A stretch of 64,000 nt of DNA, from assembly GCA_918797485.1 (NCBI GenBank), contig CAKKNE010000002.1, positions 1,736,001 to 1,800,000 on the forward strand. The letters run 5' to 3'. Of this stretch, positions 3,846 to 46,048 are shown one piece after another. The first letter of the stretch is position 1, and every line of letters begins with the position of its first letter. Under the pieces are notes generated by a model. The model did not search any database, had not been told where the DNA came from, and was given only the letters and a program-made list of their open reading frames with translations. Origin of the DNA: Pelagomonas calceolata. Its lineage: Eukaryota. The position numbers and the translations under genes were made by a program.

Positions 3846-6095
3846 TCAGGGCCGCCGTAACCCGCAGACCCAGCACTCCATGGCCTCGGCCTTGTTGACG
3901 CTCGTGCAGAAGCACGTCCAGGCGCCGGGGTCGACCGGTGCCGGCGCCGGCGCCGGCGCCCTGGCTACGGGTGGGGGCGGCGGCGTCGGTCGCGGGCGCT
4001 TCGGAGCAGGTGGCGCGTCGTCGGCGGGCGTCCAGACGCCGCTGCCCACGGTGACCTCGTGGTAGCGAGGCCGCGCGATTCTCGTGAGCCAGTGCGCGAG
4101 CTCCTGCTCGCCCAGGTTGTAGCCGCGGCTGCGGTCCTGCAGATTGTCCGCGACGATCGTGACGCCCTTCGCCGTCGCCGCCTCCAGTAAACGGTACGCG
4201 GCCGAGAGCGCGCCGTTCTGGAGGAGCGCCACGCGCCCGGCGGTCTGGCCGTTCACGGAGACGAAGACGCGGTCGAGCGGCGAGTAGCGCGCCTTGTTCG
4301 CAAGATCTCCCGCTGCCAGCCGATATTTTTCCGTCGAGGAGCCGGCCTTGCCGCGTCCGATAAAGCACGTCGCGTCGCGAGCCTTGCGCAGGTCCTTCTC
4401 GAGGGAGCGGTGGGCGTCCGCGTCGCGCAGCGTCGCGAGGCGGCCGTGGAGCGAGGCCGGCACAGGAGCGGCCGGGGGCGGTGGCGGCGGCGGCGGCGGC
4501 GCGGGCGCGACCGTCGGCTTCGGCGCCTTGGCGCGCGGCGGCGCGGCCTCGTCGTCCGACGAGGTGTCGAGGATGGGCTTCTTCCGCTTCTTGGGCGCGG
4601 GCGCCGTCTCGGCCTTCACCGTCGGCGCGGGCGCGGGCGCAGGCGCAGGCGCCGGCGCGGGCGGCGGCGCGGGCGCGGCGGCGCGCTCCGGCTTGATGCG
4701 CTTGATCTGGAGGACAGTGCCCTTGCCCTGGACCTCGCGACTCGCCGTCGTGAAGCCACCTCTGGATTCCGCCCAGCGGTGCACGGCCATGCGCGACGCC
4801 TTGTCTAGGCCCCGCACGTCGACGCGGCCGCGCGAGCCGTTGGCGAACGTGAGGATGGCCCCGGCCCGCTGCTCGCCGAGCGCGGTCGTTAACGCTTCGT
4901 CCGCGTCCGGCGGCGGCGGCGCAGCAACGGGCGCCTCGACCGCCCGGCCGTCGATCGTCGCGCCGCTCTGCGACCCGAGCACGACCAACGACTCGCCACC
5001 GCCACCGAGGACCAGCCGCAGCGGGCAGTGGTCCGAGCCCATGAAGCCGATGCGCTCCGCGCCGCGGCCCAGCAGCTCGCACGCCGCCACGCCCAGCTTC
5101 ACGGAGACGAGCGCGTGGTCGATGCGCATGCCCTTGCCGTAGTAGCGCCCTCGACCACCGTCGCCCGCCGCGCCCCGATAGCTGAAGTTCGGGCCGTCTA
5201 TGTCGACGTCCGAGTTCTTCGCGCGGAACGCGTCGACCAGCGCGCCCTCGCTGAGCAATTCGCGGAACATGCGGCACTCGCGTTCCGAGCAGCCGGGCTG
5301 GCCCTCGTCGTCGGGGTCCAAGCGCTCCGTGACCCAGCCGCCCGCCGGCGGCCGTCCCAATCTTCTTTTATTTACGTTGTTCTCCCGCTTGAACCACGAC
5401 GGGTGGCTCAGGTCCTCGTCGCGCGGCGCTACATTTAAATCGCCGACGTAGACGAGGGGCTTGCGGCCCCACTCTTTGATATCCCGGGCGAAGGTCCGTA
5501 TCCTCTCTTCCCAGGCTGCTCGCTTCGCGAAATGGGGGCCGTCCACGCCGTTGTTCGGGCTGTACGTGTGCAGCAGGAGCAGCGTCTCGTATTCTAACAG
5601 TATAATCCGTCCATCAAGCTCGTGGCGCGTCCCGAACCGGGGCGACTCCTCGTCCAGCTCGCCGACGCGGGGCAGGTCGAACCAGACGCGCTTCGGGGAC
5701 GCGCCGCCTCGTTTCAACAAAACCGCGGAGCCGGCGTACTTCGTGTCGCTCAGCGAGTAGACGGGCGCGTGCCAGGCGTCGCGATCGAACAACGCCCGGA
5801 CGCGATCTAATTCCTCGTCCTTCGCTTGTGGCCTCCGCCGGTCCCGCTCATGGCCGTCGCCCTTTTTGTGTTTCGGCACGCCACAATAGGCCTTGAGCCG
5901 CACCTCGCTCAAGAACACGCAGTCGGCGCCGCACGTCGCCAGGAACCGTCGTACCTCGTCCGCGTTCTTCTCGCTGCGCGGCACGACGCCATTGATGTTC
6001 CACGAGACGATGGCGGTCGGGTCTCCTGATGGTGTTGTCTCAGTGAGCTTCGCGAGTTTACGCGAGGCGCCCTCCCCGCCGAGGAAGCGCTTCAT
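3846..6095 (-). CDS. AP endonuclease/ExoIII (EEP) fused to an R3H-like domain, an unassigned domain and a RanBP2-like Zn finger
   Basis: EEP motifs SWNING, FLSE, YSPN, GDLNVA, DAFR, RIDH and GSDHCP. RMAVH in an R3H-like context. C-terminal WTCFCTSVN...CWVCG. Confidence 0.88.
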   Translation of the reverse strand: MKRFLGGEGASRKLAKLTETTPSGDPTAIVSWNINGVVPRSEKNADEVRRFLATCGADCVFLSEVRLKAYCGVPKHKKGDGHERDRRRPQAKDEELDRVRALFDRDAWHAPVYSLSDTKYAGSAVLLKRGGASPKRVWFDLPRVGELDEESPRFGTRHELDGRIILLEYETLLLLHTYSPNNGVDGPHFAKRAAWEERIRTFARDIKEWGRKPLVYVGDLNVAPRDEDLSHPSWFKRENNVNKRRLGRPPAGGWVTERLDPDDEGQPGCSERECRMFRELLSEGALVDAFRAKNSDVDIDGPNFSYRGAAGDGGRGRYYGKGMRIDHALVSVKLGVAACELLGRGAERIGFMGSDHCPLRLVLGGGGESLVVLGSQSGATIDGRAVEAPVAAPPPPDADEALTTALGEQRAGAILTFANGSRGRVDVRGLDKASRMAVHRWAESRGGFTTASREVQGKGTVLQIKRIKPERAAAPAPPPAPAPAPAPAPAPTVKAETAPAPKKRKKPILDTSSDDEAAPPRAKAPKPTVAPAPPPPPPPPPAAPVPASLHGRLATLRDADAHRSLEKDLRKARDATCFIGRGKAGSSTEKYRLAAGDLANKARYSPLDRVFVSVNGQTAGRVALLQNGALSAAYRLLEAATAKGVTIVADNLQDRSRGYNLGEQELAHWLTRIARPRYHEVTVGSGVWTPADDAPPAPKRPRPTPPPPPVARAPAPAPAPVDPGAWTCFCTSVNKAEAMECWVCGLRRP

Positions 6096-32922: not shown

Positions 32923-34413
32923 ATGCGAGGCCTCCTCCTCGCAGTCCTCCTCACGACAACAACCGCCGCAACGGAAACGCTCTTCGACCTCTTCGGCATC
33001 AGCCAGGTCGAACTCCCGGGCCTCGACGACTCGCAACTCAAAAAGCTCTACAAGCGGCGCGCGCTGGAGCTCCACCCCGACAAGAGCGACCACCCCGACG
33101 CCGAGGATCGGTTTAGGAGGTTGCAAGAAGCCTACGAAGGTTTGAAGGACCCCTCGACGCGGTCTTACTTCGCGAGATTTGGCCAGTACGATGTTTGGAG
33201 GAATGTGAAAGAATATGCGGACGAGAAACTCCACCATACGAGGAGAGGCTGGGTCCGCACGAGGAGAGGCGTGCAGATGGCGTCGGAGCGCGTCGACATC
33301 CGGGACGAGTTCGTCCGAGGCGACGGGCGGGTACTACCCCTCCATAAAGATTACTACGACCGAGCCTTTGGTTTTGATGGAGTCACCGTGCTCCTCGTGG
33401 CGGACCACGACGAACCCCACGTGACCCAAAAACCGGCGAACGCGCTCCGGGCCTTCGCGTCGCGGGTGACCAGCAACCAAATCCGGGTCGCTTCCTTAAA
33501 TGCGGCGGCGCTGGGCAACGGCGACTTGGCCATGAACCTCTGGGATGCGTTCGACATGCGGCGCGGCGCGGCGCTCTGCGTCGTCGTGCCGCCTTTCTCG
33601 AAGCCGACCAGCGGCGTCCGCGTGCCCTGCGACCCCTCGGCGTCGTTACCTCTACGTTTATCAAGGGTGGCCAAGTGGCTCAAGGACGACACGCTGGAGG
33701 CCGTCGCTTTTGCTGATGGCGGCTACTGCCTCTCCGACGCGGTGTCGAAGACCTGCAAACGCGTCGAGGGGCCTAGAGCCGCGCTCGTGGTGTCGACGCA
33801 TTCACCTGCATTGTCAAAGGCCGCGCGAAACGCGCGTTTGAAATTTAGACCCTTCGCCGAGGTCGTTATGATTAAATGTGACAAAGACTGCGCGAACACG
33901 CCTCGACTGCGCGTCGATATTGATGATAAATCCGTGGACCTGCCCTTAAACGACAAGCACCAGGCCGACGACGAGCGCCTGGCGGTGACCTTCACGCACC
34001 TGCTCGACGGGTTGCTGCACGGGCTGATCCCGCAAGAGAGGGCGCCGTCGTCCCTGGTCGTGGGAGGCCTCGGCGACCTCGAGGGCAATTGCAAATTACC
34101 GGGCCTCGACGGCCGCTTCGCGTTCGACGGCTATAGATTAGGCAGGCCGTCGTGGCGCAAGCGCAACGTGTACCTGCGGTGGCAGCCCGCGGCCTCCCGG
34201 AGCCGCGGCGTCGGCGCATGGTTGTTAACAGATATGGCCGACGAAGATAGAGCGTGGGGCTTCCTCGAGATCGATACGCTGACGCCGCTCGACGCCGCGG
34301 CGGCGTGCTGGACCTTCTACTGCCGGGGCCGGGCCGTCGAGTGGGAGTGCTCGCCCCACGTCAGTGTCGTGAACGGCGAGACGCCGGCGCCGAACCCGTC
34401 AAACTCTGTGTAA
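32923..34413 (+). CDS. Secretory-pathway DnaJ-domain protein
   Basis: Signal peptide, then J-domain LKKLYKRRALELHPDK...FRRLQEAYEGLKDP. Confidence 0.8.
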   Translation: MRGLLLAVLLTTTTAATETLFDLFGISQVELPGLDDSQLKKLYKRRALELHPDKSDHPDAEDRFRRLQEAYEGLKDPSTRSYFARFGQYDVWRNVKEYADEKLHHTRRGWVRTRRGVQMASERVDIRDEFVRGDGRVLPLHKDYYDRAFGFDGVTVLLVADHDEPHVTQKPANALRAFASRVTSNQIRVASLNAAALGNGDLAMNLWDAFDMRRGAALCVVVPPFSKPTSGVRVPCDPSASLPLRLSRVAKWLKDDTLEAVAFADGGYCLSDAVSKTCKRVEGPRAALVVSTHSPALSKAARNARLKFRPFAEVVMIKCDKDCANTPRLRVDIDDKSVDLPLNDKHQADDERLAVTFTHLLDGLLHGLIPQERAPSSLVVGGLGDLEGNCKLPGLDGRFAFDGYRLGRPSWRKRNVYLRWQPAASRSRGVGAWLLTDMADEDRAWGFLEIDTLTPLDAAAACWTFYCRGRAVEWECSPHVSVVNGETPAPNPSNSV

Positions 34414-38879: not shown

Positions 38880-40016
38880 GTTTCTGTTTGTTGTTGTTCT
38901 TTTTCTTCGGTGCTTTGCGATTTGTGGTGCTCCCGTCGCGTTCGTCCGCGAGTGTCGGAGGTGTCTTGCGATCGCTCGGAGGCGTCGAGGACGGTTCCAT
39001 GGACGGGTCTTGTGTTTGCCTTGCGTCCTTTCGTGGGCCGCCTTGCGCATAACTTGCCTGAGGAGAGCGCTCTATGGGGCTTTTGTTGTCTCGTAAGCGC
39101 GACGTCATCGACGAGAGTACTTGCTTGGCGTTTCAAATAGCCTTCATAAACGTGACAAGTCGACTTCGCAAGCAATCGTTGATAACGCTTACTCTACAAA
39201 TAGTTACACAGAGCACTGTCATCTCCCCGGCGGGACCGTCGCCGACCAACGGCCCACGTTCCGCCCCCCTCAGTTTTGCGCTTTTGGATGTAAGTGCTAT
39301 GTTAATAATATGAGTGCACCATGCACCAGCCCGACTCGCGGCGATGGCGTGCTGATTTATGACTCCGAGATTCGCGGACGGGCCACGGACGCGAGCAGCC
39401 AAGGGGCCCTACTCACGACGAAGCGCCACCAGAGGCCTCCAGCTCCCCGTAAAGAAGCTCCCCCGACGCGTGCGTGGCGTTTGGACGAAAAACCTCGGGT
39501 CAGGCCGGTTGCTTCAGGCCAAAGACTTCACCCAGCCATCGCTGTCAAAACAGCTCGATTTAGGCACCGCGCAGCGTACCACCGACAGACACACTTCGCC
39601 ATCTTGCCGTCTGACACGGGGCCTTGGCCGCTGCCAGATTGTTTCGCAGCGCTGCGCCCCTCCGCGCGCGCAAACACAAAAGCAACCACACTCGCTGAAG
39701 AGTTGCCGCAGCGATGCAACGCCGCGCGCGCGCGCCCCACACATCGCCCGCGCGCGCTGCGGCAACGCCGCGGCGCGCGCTGCGGCAAGCAAAAGCGCGT
39801 AAACCCACAACTTCACCACGAGCGCTTCAACCGACTCACACGACAAAACCGCGCAGGCCCTCTTCCGCACGAAGCAGGGCAACCACGTCCAAGCTGAGAC
39901 GATAGCACCACATCCTACACCGCGCGCGGGAGTACCACGGTACTCTCTGAGAAGCAGCGCCAAGACCCGGACCACGGTAATTCGTGCGGCGGGGAGCGTG
40001 TAGTTTATCAACAACG

Positions 40017-42763
40017 ATGATTCATCGTTTGTTACAAGAGGAGCGGCCCTACGACATCCCCGTCGATGCGGCCTATGGCGTGCTGTTCGGCGTGCTCGGA
40101 GCGACGTTCCTCCTCACGGTCGCCGGTTTGTTCATGAAGAAGGGTTCTGGACTAGCAGGTGTCCTGCGGCCGACCGACGACTTCCTGTCGGCGCGGAACC
40201 GCTACAAGTGGCCTACTTTGGCTTTGTCGTTCTTCGCGTCGGGCATGGGCGCGTGGGTCATCTACGGCTCTCCGGAAATGGGCGCGATTCGCACTACCAG
40301 CTGGTGGGGCGTCCTCGGCTACTCTTCCGCCTCGGCGGCGGGCGGCTGGGTGCTCATGTGGCTCGGGCCCGTCGTGAAGCGCAAGGTTGGGGAAGACCAG
40401 GGGTTTTCGGCCGTCGACTTTGCGTTGAAGCGCTATGGTCGACTCATGCAGTTGCTCGTGATGGGCGTCTCGACCTTCTACATGTTCATCTATGTCGTGG
40501 CGGAACTGACGACGATCGCGAACGTGTATGCTACCTTTGTTGGTAAGAGTACGGTCGGGACCGACTCGGAGCATTACACGACCAAGATCAGTAGCATAGT
40601 GGTCATCTTCACCTGGGCTTACACGGCGCTAGCGGGTTTACCGGCGTCGATCCTCACGGACAAGTTCCAGGGCGTGACCATTTCTATTTTCGTCATCATG
40701 CTCCTCATTGCGACGACGACGCTCAAGTCGAACGAGGTACCGGCGCGGCGTCCCTATTCAATATTTATGGGAAGGGGGTGTAGCTCAGTGGCAGAGCGTC
40801 CGCTTTGCATGCGGAAAGCCCAGGGTTCAAACCCCTGCTCCTCCAAATCCCTTTATACACAAAAAACAACTCCGTGGCGCAATGGATAGCGTATCAGACT
40901 TCGAATCTGGGGGTTGCGGGTTCGAGTCCCGTCGGAGTTGTTTTGTATCATCGCTGTGACTGATCGCGCGGCGGCCGTTCAGTATCCGTGGCCGAGTTGG
41001 TCTTTCGTCGTTTGACGAGCCAAAAAGGCGTTGGATTTAAGCCCCAATCTCTTCGGAGGCGTGGGTTCGAACCCCACCGGATGCACATGAACGCCGTCGA
41101 CGCGATACCGGACGGACTGGAAATCTGAAGGCTACGGGTTCGACTCCCGTGTCGGTCTACCGCGGTTTGGACTTGTGATAGTGTGGCCGAGTGGTTAAGG
41201 CGGTAGACTTGAAATCTACTCCCGCAAGGGTCGCAGGATCGATTCTTTGACCAAGATCGATGCGCGTTCGAACCCTGTCACTATCGCACACGTTGATGAT
41301 GTGGCCGAGTGGTCTAAGCTCTTCTGAGCGACCAGAGGCGCTGGTTTTAGGCACCAGTCTTCGGGCGTGGGTTCGAACCCCACCATCATCACTTGAGTTC
41401 CATTCCGCCCATTTGTATCCGTGGCCGAGTTGGTCTAAGGCGTTGGATTTAAGCCCCAATCTCTTCGGAGGCGTGGGTTCGAACCCCACCGGATGCATTT
41501 GGACCGATTGGCGCAACGGCAGCGCGTCAGATTCCAGTCCTGAAGGTTACGTGTTCGAATCACGTATCGGTCACACTTTATCGTGTCGTATCCGTGGCCG
41601 AGTTGGTCTAAGGCGTTGGATTTAAGCCCCAATCTCTTCGGAGGCGTGGGTTCGAACCCCACCGGATGCACACGAACCGCGTGGCGCAATGGATAGCGCA
41701 TCAGACTTCTAATCTGGGGGTTGCGGGTTCGAGTCCCGCCGTGGTTAGCTCGCTAGACCGGTACATCTCCACACAGGTCTCGCAGAAGCAGTTAGACAAC
41801 GCGTCGGGCTGGTTCTCGGAAGGCTTCGAAGCCTTGGTGACGCTCTGGATCGCGATCATCTCCGCCGAGTTGTTTAATCAAGGCGCGTGGCAGCGGGTTT
41901 TTGCCGCCAAGACCGACCGCGACATGCGCATCGGCTTCGGCGTGGGCGGCTTCATGATCTTCCTGCTCATGCTGTTCTTTGGCATCATGGGCATGATCGC
42001 CTATGCGAGAGATCGGGAAAGTTACGATAACTTCATGAAGCTCGGGTACTTGTCGATCTTTGATTTGATCCGCAATTTGCCGCAGTTCTGGCATTATGTT
42101 ACTCTCATATTGTTGACGACCTTAGCGGCGTCGTCCATTGATACGCTCCAGAACGCTTTGGCTTCGGTCCTGTCGCACGACTTGATCAAGCACAAGCTCT
42201 CGCCGAACTGGTCTCGACTCGTCGTGATTGCTTTGAATATCGGCGCGGTCATCATGGCTAATAGACGCTACGAGGTCGTTCCCTTATTCTTAGTTGCTGA
42301 TTTAGTATGTGCGACGTGCGTCTTCCCCCTGTTCCTGGGGATCAGGACCGAAGACTGGGAGATTGGATCCATCAAAATCCCGGCGCCGACGGAGCTAGGA
42401 GCCTTCTTAGGAGCCATCAGCGCCATGGTCGCCGTCATTATTAATGGTGAAGTGAACAATGTCAACAAGGCCATCAACCCCTACACGGGCAAGGTCTACG
42501 ACCGCTCGGCTCTCGCCTACTTCTGGCTCATCCAGAACCCGACCGAGGAGTGCGCGTTGTGTGGTACGAAGACCATGGTGACCTTTATCATCGTGCCCCT
42601 CGTTGGGTTGTTTTTTACGTTCTTCTGGTCTTGTCTAGATGTGCTCGTCAGTGGCAAGTACGCGCGCAAGCCCTTCTGCTTCATTCCCCGGTTGGATGAT
42701 GTGGATGAGGAGGTGCCCCTCGTCAAGGATGATGAAAAGAAGGACGAGCCGCTCGAGGCCTAG
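40017..42763 (+). CDS. Sodium:solute symporter family transporter (DUR3/PutP-like); exons 40017-40736 and 41777-42763
   Basis: Exon 1 has DDFLSARN, SFFASGMGAW and YTALAGLPASILTDKFQG. Exon 2 has ELFNQGAWQRVFAAK and ASSIDTLQNA. A phase-0 GT..AG join gives KSNE|VSQKQL. Confidence 0.88.
40774..40845 (+). tRNA. tRNA-Ala(UGC)
   Basis: Cloverleaf with G3:U70, anticodon arm TCCGC-TTTGCAT-GCGGA, and T-loop TTCAAAC. Confidence 0.93.
40868..40940 (+). tRNA. tRNA-Arg(UCG)
   Basis: Acceptor AACTCCG/CGGAGTT; anticodon arm TCAGA-CTTCGAA-TCTGG; T-loop TTCGAGT. Confidence 0.93.
40982..41085 (+). tRNA. tRNA-Leu(UAA) with a 21-nt D-loop intron (41004-41024)
   Basis: Identical to the copies at 41415 and 41588 once TTCGTCGTTTGACGAGCCAAA is removed; BHB fold at the junctions. 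Confidence 0.88.
41112..41158 (+). pseudogene. Orphan tRNA 3' half (Trp-like)
   Basis: TCTGA-AGGCT-ACGGG-TTCGACT-CCCGT-GTCGGTC parallels the 3' half of tRNA-Trp at 41502; no adjacent D-arm or 5' acceptor strand. Confidence 0.6.
41177..41286 (+). tRNA. tRNA-Ser(UGA) with a 29-nt intron at the T-stem/T-loop boundary (41238-41266)
   Basis: Acceptor GATAGTG/CACTATC; anticodon arm GTAGA-CTTGAAA-TCTAC; long variable arm. Intron removal gives GCAGG-TTCGAAC-CCTGT. Confidence 0.88.
41295..41391 (+). tRNA. tRNA-Leu(UAG) with a 19-nt D-loop intron (41317-41335)
   Basis: Acceptor GATGATG/CATCATC; anticodon arm CTGGT-TTTAGGC-ACCAG. Intron removal gives D-arm GCCGAGTGGTCTAAGGC. Confidence 0.88.
41415..41497 (+). 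tRNA. tRNA-Leu(UAA), intronless
   Basis: 83-nt cloverleaf with variable arm; anticodon loop TTTAAGC. Confidence 0.93.
41502..41573 (+). tRNA. tRNA-Trp(CCA)
   Basis: Acceptor GACCGAT/ATCGGTC; anticodon arm TCAGA-TTCCAGT-CCTGA; T-loop TTCGAAT. Confidence 0.9.
41588..41670 (+). tRNA. tRNA-Leu(UAA), intronless
   Basis: Identical to 41415-41497. Confidence 0.93.
41675..41747 (+). tRNA. tRNA-Arg(UCU)
   Basis: Acceptor AACCGCG/CGTGGTT; anticodon arm TCAGA-CTTCTAA-TCTGG. Confidence 0.93.
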
Positions 42764-42876: not shown

Positions 42877-45831
42877 CTAGTACGTCCCTGCGGGCAGCGC
42901 GACGCGCGCCTTCTTCCGGCAGAGGGGGCAGGCGACCGACACACCGCTCCGTCGGCTCATCGACCGCTCCGCCTCGACCTTGGCGTAGGTCTCCGAGCAC
43001 GAGGCGCAGAGGGCGTGCGCGCAGTCGAAGACCGTCGCATCCGCCGCGAGCAGCTCATAACATATGGGGCACTCACCCGACGGCGCGACGACGGGCGTGG
43101 CCGGCGGCGTGACAGGCGCCACCGGTTCGACCGGCGCCGCGGCCGGTGGCCGGCGGCGGGCGCGCTTGCGCGCGGACGGTTTCGGCCGCGGCGTCGTCGG
43201 CTCGCGCTTCGACGGCGTCGCCTTGGGCGAGAGTGCCTTTTCGACGGCCGCCCGCGCCTGGGCGTTGGGCCCCCGCGCACCTACCTTCGCGCCGCTCGGC
43301 GGGTTTTCGAAGACGTCGCGCAGCCACATGCTCTGCCGCACACCGTCGTCGAAGACGATCGAGTAGCACCGCGCGTGCGCGACGCCGCTAACGCTGATGA
43401 CGGTGCCGCACCACCACACGTCCGGCTCAAATAACGCCCACACGCGGCGTCCGACAGCGTCCTGCTCTGAGTCGCTCTGTGGCGCGGAGCGCCGCCGCGC
43501 ACTCCCGTCCGAGGGCTCCCGCGGCGACGCCTTGACGCGCGGCGGGCCGTCAGCCTTCCGCAGGAACTTCGGCCGGATGAACTTGGCGCCTTCGGCGTCG
43601 AGATTAACGATGTTCCAGCCGTGCTTTTCTCCCGCGACGACGCCCGTCTGCCCAGCGAAGCGCGGGTCCTCGACGCGGACGCGCGTGCCCCTAGGCAAGC
43701 AGCTCGTCGACGGCACGGACGGCGTCGGTGCGGCCACCGACGAATCCGCCACGAACTCGCTCGCGTAACGGAAGACGTTTTGTCTGCCGTCCGCCTCGAC
43801 GCGACAGCATTGATCTACAAGGGACTTCGACATGCCGTTTATGGCTCCGGCGCCTCGAGGCGAGCAGTAGTGCGCGAGAACGTCTCCGGTCGGCGAGACG
43901 AGCAAGACCTGTCCGTTCCAGTCTCGCTGGTGACACTCGCAGTCCGGATCGTCGCCGGCCGAGCACGCCATCTTCGAGCACGTGATGCCGCCGTCGGTGC
44001 AGGTCCACGGGGACGAGGCCGCCAACGCAGCCGTATCCGCGTCGACGACGCGCCACTTGTCGCACGCCACGCACTGGACCCAGGAAGCCGGCTCCGGCTC
44101 CGGCTCGGGTCTTGGCGCCGGTGCCGGCGCCGGCTTCGGTTCTGGCGCCGGCGTCGGCTCGGTCCTCGGCCGCGACTGCGTGCCGCGCGCCACCGACGGC
44201 GCGAGGACCAGCGGCGCGCGGAAATCAGCCACGTCCAGCGCTTCGGTTCCGTCGGGCGACTCCGATCCGTCGCTATGCGACGCCTCCGCGTCGGACTCGT
44301 CGGAGAAGACCGCCCCGTCGGCGCGACTCCACTCGTTGCCGTGATCGGCTGGTTCGGAGTCAGACGCGTCGTTGTCGTCCCACTCGTCGGTTCGTCGGAC
44401 GCGTCGTCTTCGGTTCCGACTCCGCGGCTGCCGACCCCCCACAGAATAAGCTTGACCGGACCGGGCCCCCTTTATGTATAAGCCGCAACCGCTTTGGCCG
44501 GGCGCCTCGTCGTTCGGCACCAGCGACGTCTTCCAGATCTGCACGAGAGACACGCTGGCGGTCAGGTCTATGGACCCGCCCTTCTGCCGCGCATCAGAGC
44601 GCTGGACGAGCTTGAACTCGCGGCCCCAGTAGCCGTGGTTGTCCTCCGTGGAGATCTCGGTGCCGTTCAAACGGAACCGCGACATCGTCCTTGCGTTGAC
44701 GCCGCGCGTCGGGTCCTGAGGATCCCACCAAAACGCCCCGGGCTGGAAGCGAACCCTGATGGCGTCTTCGGGTAGCACTCGATATTCGCGAACCGCCTTC
44801 GACACGAAGAAAGCTAGATGGGGGGTCGTAAATGGCTCGAACGCTATGGCAGAGCCGTGAACGGCAAAACCCACGGGAAACGCCGAAGCGTCGTGCGCTA
44901 ACGCGAGCCGCCGCAGCAAATTATAGGCGCCGTCGGGCTTGACGAACTCACCCGCATTGAGGCGCCGCACCGCGTCGAGCTCGGCGGGCGTCGCCGGCGC
45001 TGCGGTCAGGGCTACGTCCGCCCGTCGAGGCGCAGAGAGCGCCACACTCGCCGCACCGCCATAATTTGACTTAGGCGCGATCTGTCGTCGCGCCGCCTCT
45101 TCTCCCACGGCCTTGGGTGCGACGTATCCGCGAGCGGCGCGCCAGCGGGTCTTGCGGTCGGCCAGCCACGCTTCGAAGTCGGCGCGCGCGACGCGTTTTA
45201 AGCTTCTCCCGAGTTGCGGCGCCGCTGCCGCGTCCACCTCTTCCGTCATGCTGCGACAGAGCGCCCGAATCTCGTGCCGCGCTAATTGCGGCGAGACCAA
45301 CAAATCGACCGCTTCCGTCATTTCGTGACAGAGCGAGGTGATTTCTCGTGTGCTCTTCGCGCGCTCACGGAGATCGTCGAGGTCCACTTCCGAAAAATCT
45401 GAATCGTACTCGTACCCCCGCTCGGCGCGCCAGCGGGTCTTGCGGTCGGCCAGCCACGCTTCGAAGTCGGCGCGCGCGACGCGTTTTAAGCTTCTCCCGA
45501 GTTGCGGCGCCGCTGCCGCGTCCACCTCTTCCGTCATGCTGCGACAGAGCGCCCGAATCTCGTGCCGCGCTAATTGCGGCGAGACCAACAAATCGACCGC
45601 TTCCGTCATTTCGTCCAGCGCCTCCCGGATGGTGTCGTCCAGCAAGTGTGGTCGTCGCGCCTCTTGTCGCAGCGCCGGCGCCGCGACGGCCTTGGCGGGC
45701 GCCGCGACGACGGCCTCGAGCGGCGGCGCCTCCCTCTGCGCAGACCTCTTCGCAGCCGCGTGTCGTCCAGCGCGCTCACGGATGGTGTCGAGGTCTACAT
45801 CAGAAAAGTCCGAGTCGTCTTCTGCAGCCAT
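42877..45831 (-). CDS. Mosaic chromatin protein A: internal repeat, zf-CW, NUMOD1-like HTH, KOW-like, Tudor-like, C-terminal RING
   Basis: WVQCVACDKWR..WTC (CW); VGRRVWALF..WW.GTV...YSIVFDDG (Tudor-like); CPIC..CAHALCASC..CPLCR (RING). Confidence 0.75.
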   Translation of the reverse strand: MAAEDDSDFSDVDLDTIRERAGRHAAAKRSAQREAPPLEAVVAAPAKAVAAPALRQEARRPHLLDDTIREALDEMTEAVDLLVSPQLARHEIRALCRSMTEEVDAAAAPQLGRSLKRVARADFEAWLADRKTRWRAERGYEYDSDFSEVDLDDLRERAKSTREITSLCHEMTEAVDLLVSPQLARHEIRALCRSMTEEVDAAAAPQLGRSLKRVARADFEAWLADRKTRWRAARGYVAPKAVGEEAARRQIAPKSNYGGAASVALSAPRRADVALTAAPATPAELDAVRRLNAGEFVKPDGAYNLLRRLALAHDASAFPVGFAVHGSAIAFEPFTTPHLAFFVSKAVREYRVLPEDAIRVRFQPGAFWWDPQDPTRGVNARTMSRFRLNGTEISTEDNHGYWGREFKLVQRSDARQKGGSIDLTASVSLVQIWKTSLVPNDEAPGQSGCGLYIKGARSGQAYSVGGRQPRSRNRRRRVRRTDEWDDNDASDSEPADHGNEWSRADGAVFSDESDAEASHSDGSESPDGTEALDVADFRAPLVLAPSVARGTQSRPRTEPTPAPEPKPAPAPAPRPEPEPEPASWVQCVACDKWRVVDADTAALAASSPWTCTDGGITCSKMACSAGDDPDCECHQRDWNGQVLLVSPTGDVLAHYCSPRGAGAINGMSKSLVDQCCRVEADGRQNVFRYASEFVADSSVAAPTPSVPSTSCLPRGTRVRVEDPRFAGQTGVVAGEKHGWNIVNLDAEGAKFIRPKFLRKADGPPRVKASPREPSDGSARRRSAPQSDSEQDAVGRRVWALFEPDVWWCGTVISVSGVAHARCYSIVFDDGVRQSMWLRDVFENPPSGAKVGARGPNAQARAAVEKALSPKATPSKREPTTPRPKPSARKRARRRPPAAAPVEPVAPVTPPATPVVAPSGECPICYELLAADATVFDCAHALCASCSETYAKVEAERSMSRRSGVSVACPLCRKKARVALPAGTY
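45135..45614. repeat. Near-identical direct repeat of about 192 bp (45135-45326 and 45423-45614); partial third copy at about 47424-47537
   Basis: Encodes EMTEAVDLLVSPQLARHEIRALCRSMTEEVD... twice in gene A (288-nt offset) and a close variant once in gene B. Confidence 0.9.
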
Positions 45832-46048
45832 CAGTGCGCGTTTGCGGCTGTCGGCTGTCAGAGCGACGCCGAGTGATGGTGCGTTACGCGTGCTGTGAGA
45901 AGCTGCAAGCAGTGAATGTTTGCGCGCACTGCGAGAAATGTTGCAGCAAGCCTACCTACCAATGCGTACCGTTGCCGTGCGCTTTGAACCTGCACAGCGC
46001 GAGAGCAAAAGGGAGAGCTTGCTAGTGTCTTACAGGTCCTAGCAGAAG

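What the first reader, a model, noticed from the sequence alone, without database searches (positions are those of the whole stretch)
40737..41776. Packed array of nine tRNA genes nested inside one spliceosomal intron of a solute transporter
Seen: the SSS transporter ORF is split by a 1040-nt GT-AG intron, whereas the other introns inferred here are about 50-260 nt. It is almost entirely filled by sense-strand tRNAs: Ala-UGC, Arg-UCG, Leu-UAA x3, Ser-UGA, Leu-UAG, Trp-CCA and Arg-UCU. Spacers are as short as 4 nt (41498-41501, 41671-41674) and 8 nt (41287-41294). The only spacer with a T4 run follows Arg-UCG, and none follows the last tRNA. Established: eukaryotic tRNA genes are normally monocistronic Pol III units with upstream flank and oligo-T terminators. 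Inference: this is a polycistronic tRNA operon, transcribed either by Pol III read-through or released from the host Pol II intron in the manner of snoRNAs. The latter would couple tRNA supply to expression of a nutrient transporter.
Basis: partly seen in the sequence, partly recalled or inferred. Interest (0 to 1): 0.9.

Follow-up and report, generated by a model that had tools for sequence, protein, structure and literature searches.

The report
tRNA operons hosted inside gene introns
In a small marine alga, nine tRNA genes are packed into one spliced intron of a transporter gene, and related DNA holds similar same-strand tRNA rows in predicted introns of about 19 genes, so these tRNAs are likely cut out of ordinary messenger-RNA precursors rather than made from their own promoters.

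Summary
Real, and larger than reported. The 1040-nt intron is spliced (77 raw poly(A) reads; a contig from a second study), and all nine tRNA genes are there. An ortholog at 78-80% protein identity keeps the intron and a near-identical array. In 64 of 64 assessable metagenome loci of this Pelagomonas-like lineage, the Arg-TCG gene lies just behind a splice donor on the same strand: 29 intron sites in about 19 unrelated genes. Terminators are almost absent (2 of 83 arrays), one intron of the same type hosts snoRNA SNORD24, and tRNA-bearing introns sit at different positions of the same gene in close relatives. The P. calceolata annotation (88% seen) lists Pol III but no TFIIIC. Best reading (0.65): tRNAs are released from Pol II host introns, snoRNA-style; the polymerase and mature tRNAs were not tested. 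Special coupling to the transporter is weak. The scan earlier noted a Thr array in a Perkinsus intron; my ten paper searches found no report of this system.

The parts
39564..39856 (+). GC-AG intron in the 5' UTR of a minor, longer transcript; holds no tRNA
   Evidence: joint skipping 293 nt in 11 reads of X21; GC..AG register read from the sequence
40017..40736 (+). SSS-family (sodium:solute symporter) gene, coding exon 1 (240 aa)
   Evidence: RNA depth about 55-110 in X21
40737..41776 (+). 1040-nt phase-0 GT-AG spliceosomal intron holding the array
   Evidence: spliced reads, homolog alignment, same intron in ortholog L048
40737..40753 (+). donor plus shared donor-proximal motif (5-nt core at +11); its first 7 nt are complementary to 41758-41764
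   Evidence: motif in 26 of 26 curated introns at offset 9-13 from the donor; end pairing
40774..40845 (+). tRNA-Ala(UGC)
   Evidence: 72/72 identical in L048
40868..40940 (+). tRNA-Arg(UCG), followed by the only spacer T4 (40941-40944; T3 in ortholog L048)
   Evidence: 72/73 identical in L048
40982..41085 (+). tRNA-Leu(UAA) copy 1 with a 21-nt BHB intron in the D-loop (41004-41024, position 20b/21)
   Evidence: removing the intron gives exactly copy 2; BHB geometry in 6 of 6 distinct variants
41114..41165 (+). conserved tRNA 3' half (positions 38-73 at 41123-41158, U73), with a leader complementary to the Trp anticodon loop and a conserved 6-nt palindrome behind it; function unexplained
   Evidence: six different T-stems, all 5/5 paired, in 26 instances; duplex with the downstream Trp gene; 5' half of Trp plus this half scores as tRNA-Trp
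41177..41286 (+). tRNA-Ser(UGA) with a 29-nt BHB intron in the T-arm (41238-41266, position 53/54)
   Evidence: BHB geometry in 10 of 10 distinct variants
41295..41391 (+). tRNA-Leu(UAG) with a 19-nt BHB intron in the D-arm (41317-41335, position 21/22)
   Evidence: BHB geometry in 14 of 15 distinct variants
41415..41497 (+). tRNA-Leu(UAA) copy 2, intron-less
41502..41573 (+). tRNA-Trp(CCA), A31:C39 mismatch
   Evidence: 69/72 identical in L048
41588..41670 (+). tRNA-Leu(UAA) copy 3, identical to copy 2
41675..41747 (+). tRNA-Arg(UCU)
   Evidence: 72/73 identical in L048
41748..41776 (+). 29-nt trailer: inferred branch region, 7-nt complement of the donor end, C-rich acceptor; no T-run
41777..42763 (+). 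SSS-family gene, coding exon 2 (328 aa + stop)

Best explanation
The nine tRNA genes lie on the sense strand of a spliced intron and are likely made by RNA polymerase II as part of the transporter pre-mRNA, then likely cut out of the intron RNA much as intronic snoRNAs are. Shown: splicing of the intron; the tRNA genes; precursor reads joining exon to tRNA and tRNA to tRNA; the same layout at many other sites in the lineage. Inferred: RNase P and RNase Z release each tRNA from the excised intron (or from the nascent transcript); the tRNA splicing endonuclease and RtcB remove the three BHB introns; no Pol III start or stop is needed. The tRNA-bearing introns appear to be gained and lost as whole units, so cassettes are likely copied between introns of well-expressed genes. 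The transporter is one host among many.
For: (1) Of 78 loci found by an Arg-TCG pattern searched on both strands, 64 have a GT/GC donor plus motif just upstream on the tRNA strand, against a 19% background. Eleven end too close to judge, and the 3 without the motif carry a different Arg gene body. (2) There are 29 distinct donor sites in about 19 genes (30 clusters, one a mis-registered duplicate). For 8 introns in 6 genes one Pfam domain stops at the donor and resumes after the acceptor. C. elegans intronic tRNAs are at chance level and only 56% same-strand (PMC4999229). (3) T4 follows the last tRNA in 2 of 83 arrays, one of them cut by a contig end; the Arg genes of other organisms in L008 and L017 have T6-T10. 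(4) The first tRNA starts 18-37 nt after the donor in 24 of 26 introns, so the usual upstream promoter zone is coding exon. The shared motif is fixed to the donor (SD 0.75 nt), not to the tRNA (SD 10.6 nt). (5) An intron with the same donor motif hosts SNORD24 (L047). (6) Poly(A) sense reads: 121 and 94 reads join Arg to Ala with the spacer of the alpha-tubulin intron, and 36 run from that exon into the tRNA; an X2 contig runs from SSS exon 1 into Ala (matched by eye to L013). (7) D- and T-arm introns split the A and B boxes. In the P. calceolata annotation (14,639 of 16,667 genes seen) 12 TFIIIC terms and ids gave no TFIIIC gene, while Pol III subunits, Brf1, Bdp1, Maf1, La, RNase P subunits, RNase Z, Sen subunits and RtcB are listed. 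(8) tRNA bodies are 96-100% identical to the ortholog while exon third positions are 55% identical.
Against: No call tests the polymerase or shows mature tRNA from these loci; any intron appears in pre-mRNA reads, so (6) is expected under the rivals too. If the cassette spreads as part of a mobile intron, same-strand orientation follows from the splice signals and says nothing about the polymerase. A and B boxes are intact in six genes, many leaders end in an A/T-rich stretch or CAA, and a T4 follows Arg-TCG in this array. The annotation table is cut, and it also shows no SNAPc or TFIIIA hit, so a missing TFIIIC may reflect weak annotation. That the window's organism is P. calceolata or close to it is inferred, not shown. 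Only 8 anticodon types were sampled, all through one Arg gene. Many loci are the same site from different samples, and some contigs are chimeric across the repeats (e.g. L039, L052, L053, L076). End pairing beats shuffles (z < -2) in only 11 of 26 introns.
Confidence: 0.65

Rival explanations
1. The genes are Pol III units that happen to sit in introns: Pol III starts at the first tRNA and reads through the row as a polycistronic precursor, as in Chlamydomonas, and the intronic sense position reflects spread inside a mobile intron.
For: Intact A/B boxes in six genes. Pol III, Brf1, Bdp1, Maf1 and La are annotated in P. calceolata. A T4 follows Arg-TCG, and many leaders end A/T-rich or in CAA. 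Polycistronic tRNAs lacking poly(T) are reported in Chlamydomonas (PMC3531208). C. merolae transcribes BHB-split genes without TFIIIC (PMC3728597).
Against: No terminator after 81 of 83 arrays. C. merolae uses an upstream TATA and a T-stretch, and here the upstream zone is coding exon. A conserved T4 lies inside Leu-TAG. The shared motif tracks the donor, not the tRNA. A snoRNA shares the intron type.
Confidence: 0.25
2. The arrays are passengers of a selfish introner-like element and add little to the tRNA pool; working tRNA genes lie elsewhere.
For: Shared, partly complementary intron ends. Exact presence/absence of tRNA-bearing introns at four sites of the eEF3-like gene and three sites of a cold-shock gene among close relatives. 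Decayed copies exist (L027, L028, L018). P. calceolata has 956 putative introner elements with TIRs (PMC9481584 supplement 2).
Against: tRNA bodies are near-invariant while spacers and third codon positions diverge. BHB introns and the T-stem of the half tRNA change in compensating pairs. There is no family-wide target-site duplication. No Arg-TCG copy of the lineage was found outside such introns, and no intron-less Ser-TGA or Leu-TAG copy in 78 loci.
Confidence: 0.07
3. The array is a mis-assembly or a recent insertion of organellar, bacterial or giant-virus DNA.
For: Repeated tRNAs cause chimeric contigs in several loci; packed tRNA rows are typical of organelles and giant viruses (recalled; PMC7589089 seen as a search listing only).
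Against: An independent DNA contig crosses exon 1 into Ala. L026, L062, L072 and ortholog L048 hold the same junction. Two tRNA patterns had 0 hits in viral contigs. None of the genes encodes a 3' CCA beyond the discriminator except by chance in Ala.
Confidence: 0.02

Closest known systems
Intron-encoded snoRNAs released from Pol II host pre-mRNA (72 of 131 snoRNAs in Ostreococcus tauri, PMC7671301, passages seen)
   Same: Same-strand small RNAs in introns of well-expressed genes, several introns of one host used, no promoter or terminator of their own; one intron of this type hosts SNORD24.
   Different: The cargo is tRNA, up to nine per intron; ends would be made by RNase P/Z rather than by exonucleases.
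Intronic tRNA genes of C. elegans (PMC4999229, passages seen)
   Same: tRNA genes inside introns, with host-tRNA pairs conserved between species.
   Different: There 44% are intronic (chance level), 56% same-strand and Pol III-bound, and release by splicing is called a theoretical possibility. Here every assessable locus is intronic and same-strand in a lineage with about 0.45 intron per gene (P. calceolata, PMC9481584), in packed rows without terminators.
Polycistronic tRNA islands of Chlamydomonas reinhardtii (PMC3531208 and PMC13578239, passages seen)
   Same: Mixed-family clusters, short spacers, missing poly(T).
   Different: Those are described as Pol III islands, often of variable orientation, not as contents of spliceosomal introns.
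BHB-disrupted and permuted tRNA genes of Cyanidioschyzon merolae and archaea (PMC3728597, passages seen)
   Same: Introns in D- and T-arms with a 4-bp helix and 3-nt bulges (53/54 also occurs there); no TFIIIC identified.
   Different: C. merolae genes have an upstream TATA and a T-stretch. The review passages seen (PMC13578239) name red algae and a cryptophyte nucleomorph for such introns, not stramenopile nuclei. The half tRNA here has no strict BHB at its leader.
Introner elements of pelagophytes (PMC9860276, PMC11282704, PMC9481584 supplement; passages seen; Huff 2016 not held)
   Same: GT/GC-AG introns with shared, partly inverted ends and presence/absence between close relatives.
   Different: No consistent target-site duplication and no added codons; the interior is tRNA genes. 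The passages searched do not mention tRNA cargo.

Membership tests
Spliceosomal intron | GT-AG ends removed from mRNA, restoring the frame | tested here: met
Cytosolic tRNA genes under selection | Cloverleaf and conservation above neutral sites | tested here: met
Cytosolic tRNA genes under selection | Mature, CCA-ended, charged tRNA from these loci | not testable with these tools
   only poly(A) reads and contigs were available
Standard Pol III type-2 tRNA gene | Uninterrupted A and B boxes | tested here: inconclusive
   intact in 6 of 9 genes, split by introns in 3
Standard Pol III type-2 tRNA gene | Oligo-T terminator after the transcription unit | tested here: not met
   none after the array; 2 of 83 arrays overall
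Standard Pol III type-2 tRNA gene | TFIIIC and Pol III occupancy | not testable with these tools
   no TFIIIC term in the 88% of a relative's annotation seen; no profile search of the proteome was possible
Intron-hosted small RNA (snoRNA-like) | Same strand as host, wholly inside the intron, clear of splice signals | tested here: met
   64 of 64 assessable loci; 26 curated introns with leaders of 18-65 nt and trailers of 17-109 nt
Intron-hosted small RNA (snoRNA-like) | Present in the host pre-mRNA | tested here: met
   exon-to-tRNA and tRNA-to-tRNA sense reads and contigs
Intron-hosted small RNA (snoRNA-like) | Mature product depends on host transcription and splicing | not testable with these tools
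   needs inhibitor or knock-down data
BHB tRNA intron | 4-bp central helix between two 3-nt bulges whose cut sites give the mature tRNA | tested here: met
   30 of 31 distinct variants have a 4/4 central helix and a paired inner stem; the outer flank pairs 1 of 2; spliced forms score as tRNAs
BHB tRNA intron | Removal seen in RNA | tested here: inconclusive
   the reads over Leu-TAA copy 1 (22 in X21, 8 in X23) show no removal of the intron; most carry a variant of it
Introner (non-autonomous DNA transposon intron) | Terminal inverted repeat | tested here: inconclusive
   end duplex z < -2 in 11 of 26 introns, mean z -1.9 against base shuffles
Introner (non-autonomous DNA transposon intron) | Target-site duplication | tested here: not met
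   at most 5 nt shared across junctions, mostly splice consensus; about half of TIR families also lack TSDs (PMC9860276)
Introner (non-autonomous DNA transposon intron) | Similar introns at unrelated sites with presence/absence polymorphism | tested here: met
Introner (non-autonomous DNA transposon intron) | Mobilising transposase | not tested
   no genome held
Circularly permuted tRNA gene | 3' half upstream of a matching 5' half | tested here: met
   a Trp 5' half lies downstream in 18 of 26 instances, the other 8 ending at a contig edge; the join scores as tRNA-Trp
Circularly permuted tRNA gene | BHB formed by leader and trailer | tested here: not met
   the bulge before the anticodon stem varies from 0 to 5 nt and the 5' strand has no bulge

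The most novel reading that the evidence does not exclude
This algal lineage has lost TFIIIC and moved its tRNA genes into spliceosomal introns, so that Pol II and the spliceosome make its tRNA pool. tRNA cassettes hop between introns of well-expressed genes as mobile introns, and the array also encodes a permuted tRNA whose two halves enclose three other tRNA genes.
Probability: 0.3. Interest if true: 0.95.

Novelty: new variant of a known kind. Interest (0 to 1): 0.85.

Why it matters
Nuclear tRNA genes are taken to be Pol III units with internal promoters. A widespread ocean alga that supplies tRNAs from Pol II introns would be a natural exception. It would tie translation capacity to mRNA synthesis and splicing, give young introns a function that makes them hard to lose, and explain how A/B-box-splitting BHB introns can persist. 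It is directly testable, because cultures, a chromosome-scale genome and deep RNA runs exist for this group.

Tried and rejected
Whole-genome census: no genome is held. Reads on the 3' part of the intron: not obtained; only 39500-41040 was laid. Viral origin: 0 hits for two tRNA patterns. The shared motif as a Pol III upstream element: rejected, because it is fixed to the donor and also starts tRNA-free introns. A codon-bias intron finder meant to sample tRNA-free introns was too noisy to use (crashed), and a stricter motif scan returned no rows, so how common the motif is in ordinary introns is unmeasured. The half tRNA as a Ser-GGA or Pro gene: rejected, because the loop upstream varies in sequence and length. 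ARAGORN's Pro-GGG at 33504-33594 and Asp at L051:920 have no Rfam support and were dropped. The ARAGORN intron mode gave 64 mostly spurious calls. The Patatin hit on exon 2 is below cutoff. Rows dropped before counts: L008, L017, L022 and L023 (other organisms) were left out of the intron models, terminator count and site clustering; P0026 (990 aa) was left out of the alignment; four acceptors were set by hand. In one search the eEF3 L002 query was out of frame, so intron presence was read from the L045 query and. Literature: ten searches found no report of intron-hosted tRNA arrays in pelagophytes; the library lacks most subscription papers, and Huff 2016 and Cognat 2008 were not held. Figure S3 and the cut part of supplement 4 of PMC9481584 could not be seen and may bear on the introner and TFIIIC points.
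Full report
Observation. The window is GC-rich eukaryotic DNA. The host protein's best named relatives are pelagophyte algae (Chrysophaeum taylorii, Pelagophyceae CCMP2097, Aureococcus). Single-exon window proteins lie on a 6.1-Mb contig and have many close relatives from JGI and ENA assemblies, and runs holding the stretch include marine metatranscriptomes. I infer a Pelagomonas-like alga and use P. calceolata data only as those of a likely close relative. Joining 40017-40736 to 41777-42763 gives a 568-aa SSS-family protein with no insertion at the joint against 59 homologs. In RNA, 77 poly(A) reads of X21 and a contig of X2 continue from exon 1 into exon 2; X2 has no coverage of the silent stretch 39500-39863, so it behaves as RNA. 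A DNA contig of X6 crosses from exon 1 into tRNA-Ala. Reads were laid on 39500-41040 only.

The array. Nine tRNA genes fill the intron on the sense strand, with spacers of 4-41 nt between elements. Applying the BHB rule (cut after the second base of each 3-nt bulge flanking a 4-bp helix) removes 41004-41024, 41238-41266 and 41317-41335. This yields clean Leu-TAA, Ser-TGA and Leu-TAG, the first identical to its intron-less neighbours. Across the fetched loci 30 of 31 distinct versions of these introns keep the central helix while their inner hairpins change in pairs. No intron-less Ser-TGA or Leu-TAG was found in 78 loci. Such introns are described from archaea, red algae and a cryptophyte nucleomorph (PMC3728597 and PMC13578239, passages). 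The anticodons read A-ending codons that make up 4-9% of their families in 22 window ORFs; whether they also read the common G-ending codons is unknown.

A tenth element. At 41123-41158 lies a tRNA 3' half with no 5' half before it. Six different T-stems are all fully paired in 26 instances. Its acceptor strand, anticodon-stem strand and leader are complementary to the 5' half and loop of the Trp gene further down, and the join scores as tRNA-Trp. In L018 the Trp gene has lost its own 3' half while the pairing remains. There is no strict BHB, and U73 is a poor Trp discriminator (recalled), so a permuted gene with nested tRNAs is a lead, not a result.

Conservation and spread. One scan of metagenome contigs with the Arg-TCG gene returned 78 loci (the scan lists at most 80 rows). 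L048 is an ortholog at 78-80% protein identity with the intron at the same codon; it holds Ala, Arg-TCG, the half tRNA, Ser, Leu-TAG, Trp and Arg-TCT and lacks the three Leu-TAA copies. tRNA bodies are 69/72 to 72/72 identical, exon third positions 55%. Of the 78 loci, 64 have a donor and shared motif just upstream of the array on the tRNA strand (background 19%), 11 are cut by contig ends, and 3 lack it and have different Arg bodies. The 82 intron instances fall into 29 sites in about 19 genes. These include cyclophilin (three introns), an eEF3-like ABC protein, alpha-tubulin, histone H2A, methionine synthase, ClpP, DJ-1, a triose-phosphate transporter, a bile-acid symporter and two cold-shock genes. 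For 8 introns one Pfam domain is continuous across the intron; 12 of 49 exon pieces had no hit. Apart from SSS these introns are predictions. Loose ends in the window organism's own runs match the introns of L013, L059 and L060, so those sites are in the same organism (by eye). In the eEF3-like gene, L002 and L036 have introns at sites A and B, L052 at A and D, and L045 at C only. The cold-shock gene carries Arg-CCT introns at different codons in L046 and L060. Some contigs are chimeric across the repeats, which could inflate pairings of 5' and 3' flanks but not donor sites.

Mechanism. For release from Pol II introns: all assessable cases are same-strand; T4 follows 2 of 83 arrays while other organisms' copies have T6-T10; the first tRNA is 18-37 nt from the donor in 24 of 26 introns; and the shared motif tracks the donor. 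An intron of this type hosts SNORD24, and poly(A) reads hold exon-tRNA and tRNA-tRNA joints. The P. calceolata table lists Pol III, TFIIIB parts, RNase P and Z, splicing endonuclease and RtcB but no TFIIIC in the 14,639 of 16,667 rows held (PMC9481584 supplement 4, searched). Against: none of this tests the polymerase; pre-mRNA reads are expected of any intron; orientation may be set by a mobile intron; SNAPc and TFIIIA are also unlisted; and only 8 anticodon types were sampled. I put Pol II release at 0.65, Pol III read-through at 0.25, passive cargo at 0.07 and artefact at 0.02.

Comparison. It works like intronic snoRNA hosting (PMC7671301, passages). It differs from C. elegans intronic tRNAs, which are at chance frequency and 56% same-strand, and for which release by splicing was only raised as a possibility (PMC4999229, passages). 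It also differs from Chlamydomonas polycistronic islands (PMC3531208, passages). A 2026 review states that tRNA genes in protists are almost exclusively dispersed singletons (PMC13578239, section 23 read). The introns resemble introners in shared ends and polymorphism but fail the duplication test (PMC9860276 and PMC11282704, passages; PMC12130899 had no hit for six terms), so I do not file them as introners. Pol II-made tRNA-Sec in trypanosomes, mascRNA, and engineered intronic tRNA-guide arrays are recalled precedents that RNase P/Z can cut tRNAs out of Pol II RNA; I did not read them here. PMC8450103, PMC11237714 and PMC2888827 (passages) added nothing on this system. Ten searches found no report of it (listed under Tried and rejected).

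Verdict. The feature is real, conserved and lineage-wide. The architecture is shown; the polymerase is inferred. Interest 0.85.

Noticed in passing
L022 1-1681 and L023 1-2204: A different eukaryote (different Trp and Arg bodies) with very dense head-to-tail arrays of many tRNA families interleaved with 5S rRNA and one U6 gene; some tRNAs abut the 5S gene with 0-3 nt between.
   Followed up: partly
L047:1558-1640 (-): SNORD24 box C/D snoRNA inside an intron with the same donor motif, upstream of a tRNA-bearing intron.
   Followed up: partly
window 39564-39856: 293-nt GC-AG intron in the 5' UTR of a minor upstream-starting isoform of the transporter; the main start is near 39860-39880.
   Followed up: partly
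window 41502-41573, 41415-41497: Trp and Leu-TAA both keep an A31:C39 mismatch in the copies viewed, across two lineages for Trp; editing or tolerated mispairing is untested.
   Followed up: no
L004 and L031, about 4522-4828 on the tRNA strand: A 300-nt intron with the family donor motif and many GC-rich hairpin-like segments but no Rfam hit at E 0.5; may host an unknown RNA.
   Followed up: partly
window 40774-40940 in runs X21 and X23: The alpha-tubulin intron with its Arg-Ala pair is abundant in poly(A) RNA (121 and 94 joint reads), suggesting slow splicing or retention of tRNA-bearing introns.
   Followed up: no
window 42880-45951 (-): Neighbouring 984-aa ORF with CW and RING zinc fingers and an internal duplicated block of about 80 aa.
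   Followed up: no
window 33504-33594: ARAGORN tRNA-Pro(GGG) call inside a coding ORF with no Rfam support; likely false.
   Followed up: yes
P0017: A full-length 592-aa transporter relative called on a 25.8-kb contig, which suggests an intron-less ortholog in a more distant relative; DNA not seen.
   Followed up: no
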